From Escherichia coli (GTDB lineage: Bacteria; Pseudomonadota; Gammaproteobacteria; Enterobacterales; Enterobacteriaceae): 64,000 bases of DNA. The stretch lies in assembly GCF_013122565.1 (NCBI RefSeq), contig NZ_CP053258.1. One strand, 5' to 3'. Below are positions 6,001 through 9,000 of the stretch, in pieces; position 1 is the stretch's first letter; the number at the start of each line of letters is the position of its first letter. The position numbers are program-made.

Positions 6001-9000
6001 GCAATTACTTGAAATAAGCGTAATGGTTACTATAGTAAACATTACCACAAGGATGGATGTATGGGTGTGTATAAGGCAAGGCGATTCAGCCAAAGCACGA
6101 AAAAACTTGGTATTCACGATAAAGTTCTCATGGCTGCCGCTGAAGAAGTGATGCAAGGCATATGGGAGGCTGATTTAGGTAGCGGTGTCATCAAAAAACG
6201 GTTACCCCTCCAACAAGGAAAGAGTGGTGGAGCCAGAACAATTATCTTTTTTAAATCAGCAAATCATGTGTTTTTTTATGATGGTTGGTCCAAGAGTGGT
6301 CTAAGCAGTAAAGGAACCAAAGAAATCGAAGATGATGAACTGGCAGCCTACAAAAAAATGGCAAATGCATTTCTGGCCTTTAGCAATAAGCAAATAGAGG
6401 ATTTGATCGAAACTGGCTTCTTGATTGAGGTGAAAAATGAGCGATAAATTACAAATGATGCTGGAAGATGCAAAGGAACTGAATGCATTGGGCCTGATGT
6501 CTGATAGTGAGGTTGATGCCATTGCCGTCATGGTCAAAGCCCGTGAAGTCAGCGCCCGTATAGCCAAAGTCAAATCAATGACGGGTGAAGAGATCAAAGC
6601 CATCCGCACCCGATACGGCATGTCACAATCCGTGCTGGCACATACAATGGGAATGTCAAAAGAAAGTGTCTCGAAATGGGAACGTAATGAAATAAAACCG
6701 AGCGGCCCGGCACTACGTATTTTGAATACATTGGCAATAAAAGGGCCGGAAGTTTTTGCAAAGTAAAATGTTTGCAAATGATTTACCACATTCATTAGTA
6801 CCCCTTGATTCAGGGGTACTAACACTATTCTAATTCTACTGCCAGCTAATCTGCGCCCTGCCGTTTTTCTTACTCTTATACAGCCGCTCATCTGCCAGCA
6901 TTTTCAAGCGTTCGACGGTAGTACATTCATTTGAATGCGCTATACCGATACTGGTGCTTAAATTAATGCTTCCCACCTGGAAATGAACAATTTCTTTTAG
7001 AATCGATAGCAACTCTTCCAGCGTTCCACCCGTATAAATCACCGCAAATTCGTCACCGCCGAAGCGGTAGACTTTACCTTTATCTACGGGGATCTGTGAT
7101 TTAAGGATTTTCACCACTTTCATCAACACTTCATCGCCCAGCAAATGACCGAAGGTGTCGTTAATGTTTTTGAATTTATCGACGTCAAACAGGCACAAAT
7201 ATCCGCCTTTTTCCGGCAGGGCTTTTAAATCTTCGTCAAAGGATTTTCTGCCCATTGCTTTGGTCAGGTCGTCCAGGAACGCTGAGTTATACAGACTGTA
7301 GAGTTTTTTGACATCGGCAGCCGAAAAGAAAAGCCCGCCATCCAGTACACGTTCAAAATGGTTATTAATGATGGCTTCTTTCTCCACAATACCACGATTA
7401 ATCACTCTGCGTACCATATAGAGGCAACTGGTACCCGATATCACTGCCACCAATGCGGCAAAGAAAATAATCAATGTACAGACCCGCAAATAAACATCTT
7501 TTTTATACGCAAATACGTACAATCCTGTCGGCAAATAGGCGAAGTGCTCCATCGCTTCCGAAACGGTGAAGATGGCGTTTTTAGCATTATATTCATCACC
7601 GGTCACCGGTTTACCGTTCTTAAACAGAGAGAACATCAGGTTTTCGCTATCCATCGCCAGCGATTTTGACAGTAAAGAAAAACGCTCCAGACCAAGCAAA
7701 AATATCAGACTACGATTGTGAGTTACCGGATAGAGGTAATAGACGAAGGTTTTACCGTCAAAAGAGATAAACCCTGTATTTTTGACATGTCGATACTTCA
7801 CAACCTGCATAATATCTGCACAATAATTTTTCTCGAACTCCTTTACCTGAATACATTCGTCACTGGAAATCAGATAAGGACCGACATCGTACAAATAAGA
7901 GGGTGAAACCGAGTCGGCGTAAGCTGTGCGTAAGCCAACCAACAGCTGTTCCTCCGTGGGATTTAGCGTGTTGATAAGATCAATTGCCACGCTACGCCGA
8001 TATTCAGCAATATTTGCCACCGCAAAAGCAGTATCAATAACGGACTGTTTCAGGCTATACACCCGTTCCTTTACCATTTGAGTGTAGATCCCGCAGGCAA
8101 CTGCTGAAATCATGATAAAAATCAGCAGACTGACTGTAAGTACGAACTTATTGATTCTGGACATACGTAAACTACTCTTTTACTAATTTTCCACTTTTAT
8201 CCCAGGCGGAGAATGGCATGGGTTTCTGGTACAGATACCCCTGAGCCTGAACACATCCTAATTTGATTAATTCGCGCGCAACGTCTTCGCTCTCTACGCC
8301 TTCCGCAATCACCGGGATCCGGTTATAGCGTGCCAGGTCGAAAATAATGCGCACAATTTTTCCCGCAGTACCGAAAATATCGCCGGTAAATTGCGAGTCC
8401 ACCTTTATGCTGTCTGGATTAATTTCATAAAAACGTTTCAGGTTTGACAAACCGGTGCCAAAGTCATCAATCGATATCCGTACCCCTTGTTTACGCAGTT
8501 GTTCAATATTGAGATAAAAATGTTCATTAATTCGCTCGATCACGGTTTCAGTGATCTCAACACAGAGGCTGTTCGCCTTCAGGCCATTTTCTTTCATGAT
8601 GGTGGTAAAACGCTCATGAAAGTGCGGTTCGTTTAACTGCCAGGGCGAAACATTAATATGCAGTAAGAAATCATCCTTCAGCGATGCACGCTGACTAAAA
8701 TGTCTGAATTCACCCATTGCCGTTTTAATAATCTGATAACCCAGCTCATTGATAAACCCGATATCTTCAGCAATGGTAATGAACTTCAGCGGTGAAATGA
8801 TCCCCCGCTCCGCAGACACCCAACGGCACAACGCCTCCGCGCCCAGAATGGCGCGGGTGTTAATATCAACGATCGGTTGATAGACGAGGAATAGTTCGCC
8901 AATTTCCATTGCATGGCGAATATTACGCGCAATCCAGATATTCTCTTCTATTTCGTTGAGTTTCGCGTCATCACAGAAAATAAACTCGGAGAACATATGG

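What the first reader, a model, noticed from the sequence alone, without database searches (positions are those of the whole stretch)
6009..6766. HigB-2/HigA-2-like toxin-antitoxin cassette inserted between rimO and dgcI
The rimO-dgcI interval is ~1 kb here and holds a toxin-first two-gene module with an 11-bp overlap. The 128-aa product has a GKSGGARTIIFF motif resembling HigB-2-type RelE/ParE toxins, and the 109-aa product has a C-terminal XRE helix-turn-helix. An imperfect 26-bp palindrome overlaps a sigma70-like promoter just upstream. K-12 has no TA module at this position as far as I recall, and GC content here is below the neighbours.
Basis: partly seen in the sequence, partly recalled or inferred. 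Interest (0 to 1): 0.6.

Follow-up and report, generated by a model that had tools for sequence, protein, structure and literature searches.

The report
HigBA2-type toxin-antitoxin operon, already annotated
The 1-kb gap between rimO and dgcI holds an intact, ordinary toxin-antitoxin gene pair of the HigB-2/HigA-2 kind, found at this site in about a fifth of complete E. coli genomes and already labelled as such in public annotation.

Summary
Two overlapping + strand ORFs lie in a 1000-bp rimO-dgcI gap: 6061-6447 (128 aa) and 6437-6766 (109 aa), with an 11-bp overlap. K-12-type strains have 46 bp there.

- **Toxin:** full-length match to Pfam PF06296, the family that holds V. cholerae HigB-2. 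A family profile and an AlphaFold model both pick HigB-2 as the best solved relative. Four of five HigB-2 active-site residues are identical. The fifth (Tyr) is Trp here and aromatic in 95 of 99 relatives.
- **Antitoxin:** a C-terminal XRE helix-turn-helix domain that superposes on HigA-2, after a 45-residue N-terminal segment.
- **Operator:** a 26-bp palindrome (6020-6045, 12 of 13 pairs) spans the -10 of a 10/12 sigma-70 promoter. Its core, TTACTATAGTAA, is kept upstream of homologous operons in Kluyvera, Siccibacter, Providencia and Xenorhabdus.
- **Closest tested relative:** Coxiella ToxP/AntitoxP (36% and 33% identity).
- **Distribution:** 1129 of 5426 complete E. coli genomes carry the cassette at this site. 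RefSeq already calls the first gene a type II RelE/ParE family toxin.

Two details need correcting. GC is lower than in rimO but not lower than in dgcI. "Inserted" is unproven, because relatives in other genera sit at the equivalent site. This is a correct but ordinary finding.

The parts
5841..6835 (.). Strain-variable segment that replaces the 46-bp rimO-dgcI spacer of K-12-type strains
   Evidence: Homology to a K-12-lineage genome stops about 5 bp after the rimO stop and resumes at the dgcI stop codon. These 995 bp occur in 1138 of 5426 complete E. coli genomes, with a median of one place per genome (1145 of 1146 places on chromosomes), at 98.5-100% identity in nearly all.
5845..5882 (+). 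Stem-loop just after the rimO stop. Possibly a rimO 3' end structure, but it has no T tract.
   Evidence: Inverted repeat I1. Fold energy -16.2 kcal/mol, z -4.4 against shuffles. The terminator scan did not call it. Function inferred only.
6009..6036 (+). Sigma-70-type promoter: -35 TTGAAA (6009-6014), 16-nt spacer, -10 TATAGT (6031-6036)
   Evidence: 10 of 12 consensus positions. The -10 lies in the invariant block of the alignment with the two Kluyvera loci; only the TG of the -35 is invariant there. The two plasmid copies carry TTGCAT or TTGCAC upstream of the same core.
6020..6045 (.). Putative operator: 26-bp palindrome GTAATGGTTACTA|TAGTAAACATTAC covering the -10 and the likely transcription start
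   Evidence: 12 of 13 pairs (I7). No match in 100 shuffles of the window. The core is conserved upstream of homologous operons, while the flanks are not. In a scan of 100,044 species genomes, 5 of 7 pattern matches lie directly upstream of a homologous operon or antitoxin gene.
6049..6053 (+). Shine-Dalgarno AAGGA for the toxin gene, 7 nt before the ATG
   Evidence: Read from the sequence.
6061..6447 (+). higB2-type toxin gene, 128 aa. Predicted active site: K45, R47, R59, W76, K78.
   Evidence: PF06296, E 7.9e-33, model positions 1-120 of 120. Family profile hits HigB-2 structures at E 3e-9. AF2 pLDDT 92 with HigB2 as top Foldseek hit. 36% identical to Coxiella ToxP. Residue conservation. pN/pS about 0.2.
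6425..6430 (+). Shine-Dalgarno GAGGTG for the antitoxin gene, inside the 3' end of the toxin gene
   Evidence: Read from the sequence. No promoter-like site was found inside the toxin gene, so coupled translation from one transcript is inferred.
6437..6766 (+). higA2-type antitoxin and repressor gene, 109 aa. N-terminal segment 1-45, XRE HTH domain about 48-106.
   Evidence: HTH_3, E 3.4e-9. HigA-2 hit at query 47-106 against chain 38-96. The AF2 model's top Foldseek hit is 5jaa_A, and the HigA2 C-terminal domain gives TM-score 0.83 (normalised to that domain) and rmsd 1.1 Å. 33% identical to Coxiella AntitoxP.
6795..6822 (.). Perfect 11-bp stem with a 6-nt loop between the convergent antitoxin and dgcI genes. 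Candidate two-way 3' end structure, without T tracts.
   Evidence: Inverted repeat I11. -16.8 kcal/mol (+ strand, z -3.2) and -23.5 kcal/mol (- strand, z -4.5) for the 69-nt stretch 6767-6835 that holds it. Not called by the terminator scan.

Best explanation
This is an intact type II toxin-antitoxin operon of the HigBA2 kind (toxin family Pfam PF06296).

**Proposed mechanism**
1. One sigma-70 promoter (6009-6036) drives a two-gene transcript, toxin first.
2. The 128-aa toxin is a RelE-fold endoribonuclease. It is expected to enter the ribosomal A site and cut translating mRNA, using K45, R47, R59 and K78 plus the aromatic W76.
3. The 109-aa antitoxin binds the toxin through its N-terminal 45 residues and blocks it.
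4. The antitoxin's C-terminal XRE helix-turn-helix domain dimerises on the 26-bp palindrome that covers the -10, so the operon represses itself.
5. If the labile antitoxin is degraded or no longer made, free toxin stops translation and growth.

**Shown here:** the genes, family membership, fold, conserved active-site residues, purifying selection, promoter and conserved palindrome, and the population distribution.

**Inferred from characterised relatives (V. cholerae HigBA2, Coxiella ToxP/AntitoxP):** toxicity, mRNA cleavage, neutralisation, DNA binding and antitoxin lability.
For: - **Anatomy:**
- **Toxin family:** PF06296 full length, E 7.9e-33. PF06296 is the HigB-2 family (PMC11980606).
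- **Solved relatives:** a 99-sequence profile finds only HigB-2 chains as significant PDB matches, E 3e-9. The AF2 model (pLDDT 92) has HigB2 5ja8, 5jaa and 5ja9 as its top five Foldseek hits.
- **Active site:** the HigB2 residues K49, R51, R64, Y82 and K84 (PMC5416850; PMC10098735) align to K45, R47, R59, W76 and K78. In 99 relatives these are K 99, R 97, R 99, aromatic 95 and K 98.
- **Tested relative:** Coxiella ToxP, 36% identical over the whole protein. It is toxic, rescued by AntitoxP and inhibits translation, and its K79E mutant (equivalent to K78 here) is non-toxic. AntitoxP binds ToxP and the promoter.
- **Antitoxin:**
- **Operator:**. The same placement (after the -35, across the -10) was mapped for V. 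cholerae HigA2 (PMC11006873).
- **Selection:** pN/pS of 0.15-0.24 for both genes, with saturated synonymous sites.
- **Family-wide pairing:** a homologue of this toxin is followed by a homologue of this antitoxin in all the related loci read in full.
Against: - No experiment on this E. coli pair was found in the searchable literature.
- Tyr82 of HigB-2, whose alanine mutant loses 1200-fold activity, is Trp here and Phe in most relatives.
- The single sequence is too far from HigB-2 for phmmer to detect it.
- No NCBIfam model covers the toxin.
- The antitoxin N-terminus has no detectable sequence similarity to the HigA-2 neutralising segment. AF2 predicts it as two confident helices rather than as disordered.
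- The palindrome geometry is 13+13 with no spacer, against 7-N5-7 in V. cholerae.
Confidence: 0.85

Rival explanations
1. The mechanism is the same, but the biological role is abortive-infection phage defence rather than stress response or addiction. Phage infection would release the toxin and shut down translation in the infected cell.
For: RelE/ParE-superfamily toxins are discussed as defence toxins (PMC11980606). The cassette is a presence/absence polymorphism, in 21% of E. coli genomes. A 37%-identical homologue lies in an E. coli phage genome, and the antitoxin matches phage family phrog_2104 at E 6.6e-17.
Against: The toxin has no PADLOC hit, and the antitoxin gives only generic HTH hits. 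No other defence genes or mobile-element genes flank it. Nothing here tests phage sensitivity.
Confidence: 0.15
2. A domesticated or attenuated pair. The toxin has lost RNase activity (Tyr to Trp at the stacking position), and the locus persists as an autoregulated transcription factor with a harmless partner.
For: W76 replaces the Tyr82 of HigB-2. An orphan antitoxin with the same operator and no toxin exists in Xenorhabdus khoisanae, so the regulator can persist alone.
Against: The four basic active-site residues are essentially invariant in 99 relatives, and the position is aromatic in 95 of 99. The toxin gene is under purifying selection, pN/pS about 0.2. It is full length here and identical or nearly identical in hundreds of genomes. 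Phe or Trp is the family norm, so Trp does not mark decay.
Confidence: 0.08
3. A ParE-like gyrase poison rather than an mRNA interferase, as the RefSeq name "RelE/ParE family toxin" leaves open.
For: Only the generic product name. RelE and ParE toxins share one fold.
Against: The only Pfam hit is PF06296, listed as ribosome-dependent mRNA degradation. The best solved relatives by sequence and by fold are HigB-2. The best ParE structural match has E 1.3 and probability 0.15. The RelE-type basic active site is conserved. The tested relative ToxP inhibits translation.
Confidence: 0.02

Closest known systems
Vibrio cholerae HigB-2/HigA-2 (VCA0468/0469; PDB 5JA8, 5JAA, 8A0X)
   Same: - Same Pfam family, PF06296, and toxin-first order.
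- Best solved relative of the toxin by profile (E 3e-9) and by fold.
- K49, R51, R64 and K84 are conserved.
- The antitoxin has the same length class and the same layout: an N-terminal segment plus a C-terminal XRE HTH that superposes at rmsd 1.1 Å.
- A single palindromic operator lies after the -35 and across the -10.
   Different: - Only a profile detects the toxin similarity; phmmer finds nothing.
- The toxin here is 128 aa against 110 aa, with an extra C-terminal helix and strand.
- Tyr82 is Trp here.
- The antitoxin N-terminus shows no sequence similarity.
- The operator sequence and geometry differ: 13+13 with no spacer, against TGTACGC-N5-GCGTACA.
- The location is a core-genome intergenic site, not a superintegron cassette.
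Coxiella burnetii ToxP/AntitoxP (CBUA0028/CBUA0027, plasmid QpH1)
   Same: The closest experimentally tested relative found: 36% (toxin) and 33% (antitoxin) identity over nearly full length. It has the same gene order and overlapping genes. The ToxP K79 needed for toxicity aligns with K78 here.
   Different: It is plasmid-borne and serves plasmid maintenance in an obligate intracellular bacterium. It has Tyr at the aromatic site. Its promoter and operator sequence were not compared here.
Plasmid copies in Providencia, Moellerella and Xenorhabdus, and chromosomal copies in Kluyvera, Siccibacter and Enterobacteriaceae UBA5654
   Same: 52-78% protein identity, the same two-gene layout, and the same operator core TTACTATAGTA(A/C) at a similar distance from the start codon.
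   Different: None has been characterised experimentally as far as I found. The flanking DNA is unrelated, except that the Kluyvera and UBA5654 copies also lie beside gsiD, rimO or bssR.
E. coli MqsR/MqsA and the NadS family
   Same: The antitoxin HTH domain resembles the MqsA C-terminal domain (TIGR03830 47 bits; 3gn5). MqsRA is also toxin-first.
   Different: Scores are below the curated cut-offs (47.1 against 61.8; NadS 36.7 against 60). There is no zinc-binding CxxC N-terminal domain. The toxin has no MqsR match.

Membership tests
HigB-2 toxin family (Pfam PF06296 'RelE') | Full-length match to the family profile | tested here: met
   E 7.9e-33, 113.7 bits, query 1-124 on model 1-120 of 120. 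No other Pfam family is significant.
HigB-2 toxin family (Pfam PF06296 'RelE') | RelE/BECR fold with HigB-2 as nearest solved structure | tested here: met
   AF2 pLDDT 92.1, pTM 0.87. Foldseek ranks 1-5 are HigB2 chains, probability 0.94-1.0, best TM-scores 0.55 (query-normalised) and 0.67 (target-normalised). The PDB profile search gives E 3e-9.
HigB-2 toxin family (Pfam PF06296 'RelE') | Basic active-site residues (HigB-2 K49, R51, R64, K84) | tested here: met
   They align to K45, R47, R59 and K78. In 99 relatives these are conserved in 99, 97, 99 and 98 sequences.
HigB-2 toxin family (Pfam PF06296 'RelE') | Tyr82 of HigB-2 | tested here: inconclusive
   Trp76 here. Across relatives the position is F 72, W 12, Y 11 of 99. 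The aromatic character is kept but the hydroxyl is not. The effect on catalysis is unknown.
HigB-2 toxin family (Pfam PF06296 'RelE') | Ribosome-dependent mRNA cleavage; growth arrest when expressed alone | not testable with these tools
   Known for V. cholerae HigB-2. Translation inhibition is known for Coxiella ToxP. I found no data for this protein.
HigBA2-type operon | Toxin gene first, antitoxin second, coupled or overlapping | tested here: met
   11-bp overlap, with the Shine-Dalgarno GAGGTG inside the toxin gene. The related loci read in full have the same order.
HigA-2 antitoxin | C-terminal XRE/lambda-repressor-like HTH dimerisation and DNA-binding domain | tested here: met
   HTH_3, E 3.4e-9. 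HigA-2 E 5.7e-4 with the single sequence and 6.9e-6 with the profile, in register: query 47-106 against chain 38-96 for the single sequence, 47-100 against 38-91 for the profile. 5j9i gives TM-score 0.83 (target-normalised) and rmsd 1.1 Å.
HigA-2 antitoxin | N-terminal intrinsically disordered segment that folds on the toxin and neutralises it | tested here: inconclusive
   A 45-residue N-terminal segment exists and is conserved among relatives. It has no sequence match to HigA-2, and AF2 predicts two helices (4-17, 23-43) with high confidence. Binding was not tested.
HigA-2 antitoxin | Single palindromic operator between the -35 and across the -10 of its own promoter | tested here: met
   Shown in silico only. 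The palindrome 6020-6045 lies within promoter 6009-6036. It is conserved across homologous operons. The V. cholerae arrangement is. Protein binding was not tested.
MqsA family (TIGR03830) and NadS (NF041265) | Score above the curated NCBIfam cut-off | tested here: not met
   47.1 bits against a cut-off of 61.8, and 36.7 against 60. Only the HTH part matches.
Known anti-phage defence systems (PADLOC-DB 2.0) | Toxin matches a defence-system protein model | tested here: not met
   No family for the toxin at E up to 0.1. The antitoxin gives only generic HTH hits.

The most novel reading that the evidence does not exclude
The operon may be an old resident of the rimO/bssR-gsiD neighbourhood of Enterobacteriaceae rather than a recent insertion. 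It is found beside gsiD in Kluyvera and in genome UBA5654. On this reading E. coli keeps it as a long-standing presence/absence polymorphism, and dgcI-pdeI arrived later between it and gsiD. The cassette would then be lost in K-12-like strains. It might have a locus-specific role, for example stabilising or co-regulating the adjacent c-di-GMP genes, beyond that of a generic addiction module.
Probability: 0.12. Interest if true: 0.35.

Novelty: already known. Interest (0 to 1): 0.12.

Why it matters
It matters little beyond correct annotation. The pair adds one more RelE-superfamily mRNA interferase to the toxin-antitoxin set of many pathogenic E. coli, including O157:H7 and O55:H7, that K-12 lacks. 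That is relevant to anyone comparing stress tolerance, persistence or phage sensitivity between K-12 and such strains. This locus appears not to have been tested experimentally. A toxicity and rescue assay would be easy, but its outcome is predictable from V. cholerae HigBA2 and Coxiella ToxP/AntitoxP. The conserved operator core TTACTATAGTAA is a small, usable by-product for finding relatives.

Tried and rejected
- **Single-sequence searches of the toxin.** PDB, NCBIfam and PADLOC found nothing. Only Pfam and a family profile connect it to HigB-2.
- **Rfam on 5700-6950.** No RNA family at E up to 1.
- **Flanking repeats or mobile-element scars around 5841-6835.** Only short chance-level repeats, and no transposase or integrase.
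- **Internal promoter for the antitoxin inside the toxin gene.** None at the scan's threshold. The one extra promoter-like site (6620-6648) lies inside the antitoxin gene.
- **Terminator scan.** It did not call the two strong hairpins (5845-5882, 6795-6822), because they lack T tracts.
- **Literature searches.** Protein accessions, O157 locus tags and "rimO dgcI toxin-antitoxin" returned nothing relevant.
- **A "divergent" allele in E. coli BS-01.** It is homopolymer-ridden assembly noise, not gene decay.
- **Two Paenibacillus matches to the operator pattern.** They have no related genes nearby and are treated as unrelated.
- **A. baumannii HigBA2.** I read the paper, but it gives no evidence that this pair belongs to PF06296, so I did not use it as a relative.
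- **Gain or loss.** I could not polarise it. Synonymous sites are saturated (pS 0.72-0.89 for the toxin-antitoxin genes against 0.54-0.70 for gsiC, gsiD and rimO), and GC3 of the cassette is low in every lineage.
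Full report
**1. What is in the sequence**

The rimO ORF ends at 5835. The convergent dgcI ORF ends at 6836 on the - strand, so 1000 bp lie between them.

Within this gap are two + strand ORFs: 6061-6447 (128 aa) and 6437-6766 (109 aa). They overlap by 11 bp.

- The toxin ATG is the first in-frame start. It is preceded by AAGGA, 7 nt upstream.
- The second ORF is preceded by GAGGTG, inside the end of the first.
- Upstream is a sigma-70-like promoter, TTGAAA-16 nt-TATAGT, at 6009-6036, with 10 of 12 consensus positions.
- A spacer-less 26-bp palindrome at 6020-6045, with 12 of 13 pairs, covers the -10 (I7).
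- A degenerate version of the palindrome matched the window once and matched none of 100 shuffles, even with three mismatches allowed.
- Strong hairpins without T tracts sit just after rimO (5845-5882) and between the antitoxin gene and dgcI (6795-6822).
- No Rfam family matches the region.

GC of the cassette is 0.39-0.45. That is below rimO (0.51-0.55) but the same as dgcI and pdeI (0.41-0.45).

**2. Comparison with other E. coli**

- Of 5426 complete genomes, 1129 carry the whole interval at this site. The rest match only the rimO and dgcI ends.
- A K-12-lineage genome has a 46-bp spacer holding an unrelated hairpin.
- Homology breaks 5 bp after the rimO stop and resumes at the dgcI stop codon. 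The difference is therefore a replacement of about 44 bp by about 995 bp, not a clean insertion.
- No flanking repeats or mobility genes are present.
- The 995 bp have a median of one place per genome, almost always chromosomal, and are 98.5-100% identical among nearly all carriers. Carriers include O157:H7 and O55:H7.
- RefSeq annotates the genes as "type II toxin-antitoxin system RelE/ParE family toxin" and "helix-turn-helix domain-containing protein".
- The exact protein sequences are on at least 1000 contigs in public collections, under those names or as "Addiction module toxin RelE".

**3. The toxin**

- Pfam gives a single, full-length hit to PF06296 "RelE", E 7.9e-33.
- A 2025 review of the RelE/ParE superfamily places V. 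cholerae HigB-2 in PF06296. It lists that family as ribosome-dependent mRNA-degrading toxins with toxin-then-antitoxin gene order (PMC11980606).
- The single sequence is too distant for phmmer to reach any solved structure, and no NCBIfam model covers it.
- A profile of 99 relatives finds HigB-2 chains as the only significant PDB matches, E 3e-9.
- An AlphaFold2 model built on that alignment is confident, pLDDT 92 and pTM 0.87. Its five best Foldseek matches in the PDB are all V. cholerae HigB2.

The HigB2 active site comprises K49, R51, R64, Y82 and K84. Ala mutants of R51, R64, Y82 and K84 lose 170- to 3000-fold activity (PMC5416850; K49 is added in PMC10098735). In the profile alignment these residues correspond to K45, R47, R59, W76 and K78. 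Across the 99 relatives the counts are K 99, R 97, R 99, aromatic 95 (F 72, W 12, Y 11) and K 98. The catalytic basic residues are therefore intact. The Tyr position is aromatic, but it is not Tyr in most of this branch of the family.

**4. The antitoxin**

- Residues 53-94 match Pfam HTH_3, E 3.4e-9.
- HigA-2 of V. cholerae is among the solved matches, and in the same register: query 47-106 against chain 38-96 of a 103-104 aa protein.
- The AlphaFold2 model (pLDDT 90) shows two N-terminal helices followed by a five-helix HTH domain.
- Its best Foldseek hit is HigA2 in the HigBA2 complex. The isolated HigA2 C-terminal domain superposes with TM-score 0.83 (normalised to that domain) and rmsd 1.1 Å.
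- MqsA and NadS models match only the HTH part and score below their curated cut-offs.
- The N-terminal 45 residues have no detectable similarity to the HigA-2 neutralising segment. That this segment neutralises the toxin is an inference from the shared architecture.

**5. The operator**

The core TTACTATAGTAA and the outer GTA...TAC arms are conserved upstream of homologous operons in two Kluyvera species, while the rest of the intergenic DNA is not. The same core, with covarying arms, lies upstream of plasmid copies in Xenorhabdus and Providencia whose proteins are only 54-59% identical.

I scanned one genome from each of 100,044 species for GTAMYNNTTACTATAGTAANNRKTAC and got seven matches:

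- Four lie about 15-18 bp upstream of a homologous toxin-antitoxin pair.
- One lies upstream of an orphan antitoxin homologue.
- Two, in Paenibacillus, have no related gene nearby.

In V. cholerae, footprinting mapped a single HigA2 operator that starts after the -35 and extends over the -10 (PMC11006873). The placement here is the same, although the sequence and half-site spacing differ.

**6. Selection and experimental relatives**

Both genes show pN/pS of about 0.15-0.24 against the Kluyvera and UBA5654 copies, with saturated synonymous sites. They are maintained coding genes.

The closest experimentally tested relative I found is Coxiella burnetii ToxP/AntitoxP on plasmid QpH1 (hit H93). 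Identities are 36% and 33%. Published results for it (PMC10098735):

- ToxP is toxic, is rescued by AntitoxP and inhibits translation.
- A K79E mutant is non-toxic in E. coli. K79 aligns with K78 here.
- AntitoxP binds ToxP and the promoter.

Homologues lie on 209 plasmid records across many genera and in one E. coli phage.

**7. Mechanism, and how much of it is shown**

The best-supported account is a standard HigBA2-type module. One autorepressed promoter drives both genes. The toxin is a RelE-fold, ribosome-dependent mRNA endonuclease. The antitoxin neutralises it through its N-terminal segment and represses the promoter through its HTH domain at the palindrome.

- **Shown here:** anatomy, family, fold, residue conservation, operator conservation, selection and distribution.
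- **Inferred from relatives:** toxicity, cleavage, binding, and antitoxin lability.
- **Not resolved by these data:** the biological role (addiction, stress response or phage defence). The toxin has no PADLOC match.

**8. Direction of the difference from K-12**

In Kluyvera georgiana, K. sichuanensis and an unnamed Enterobacteriaceae genome (UBA5654), the homologous operon also lies immediately downstream of gsiD, convergent with it, and next to bssR or rimO. None of them has dgcI-pdeI there.

This suggests long residence at this chromosomal position, with loss in K-12-like E. coli. On that reading dgcI-pdeI, which are low in GC, are the later arrival.

Against this, no Escherichia species representative matched the operator pattern, and GC3 of the cassette is low in every lineage. 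I could not polarise the event, so "inserted" should be read as "present here, absent in K-12".

**9. Verdict**

The feature is real, intact and very probably functional. It belongs to a well-studied family and is already annotated as a toxin-antitoxin pair in public records. I found no experimental paper on this particular E. coli locus, but the outcome of such work is largely predictable. Novelty: already known. Interest: low.

Noticed in passing
L004 4001-4706; L007 4001-4707; L017 6750-7446; window 6061-6766 and 10701-12532: The homologous operon lies directly beside gsiD in Kluyvera georgiana, K. sichuanensis and Enterobacteriaceae UBA5654. It also lies next to bssR in K. sichuanensis and near rimO in UBA5654. 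None of them has dgcI-pdeI there. In E. coli the low-GC dgcI-pdeI pair sits between the cassette and gsiD. This hints that the cassette is an old resident and that dgcI-pdeI arrived later.
   Followed up: partly
L020 881-1219 (Xenorhabdus khoisanae): The same operator palindrome is followed directly by a 97-aa antitoxin homologue with an internal deletion in its N-terminal segment, and there is no toxin gene. This is an orphan antitoxin or repressor.
   Followed up: partly
L003 3284-3981 (E. coli STK78-E): An IS1 copy sits just after rimO, and rimO is joined to gsiD. The whole dgcI-pdeI interval, including the cassette site, is missing in this strain.
   Followed up: no
L013 990-1880 (E. coli BS-01): An apparently divergent, antitoxin-less allele of the cassette is full of long homopolymer runs. 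It looks like poor assembly consensus rather than biological decay.
   Followed up: yes
L018 163-906 ('Collinsella sp.' MAG contig, 1198 bp): A contig binned as Collinsella encodes toxin and antitoxin proteins 100% identical to those of this E. coli cassette, behind the same operator. It is probably a binning contaminant.
   Followed up: no
L017 7759-8709: In genome UBA5654 a 316-aa ORF of unknown function lies between rimO and the toxin gene, on the same strand. I did not characterise it.
   Followed up: no
PV340552.1 4340-4657 (Escherichia phage PhiR12_3, hit H77): The only phage record with a relative of the toxin (37% identity, E 2e-11). It spans two ORFs annotated as hypothetical.
   Followed up: no
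window 5865-5990: A 41-aa TTG-start ORF lies in the E. coli-specific 5' part of the variable segment. That 150-bp stretch is not shared with the Kluyvera loci, and its origin is unknown. The ORF is probably spurious.
   Followed up: no
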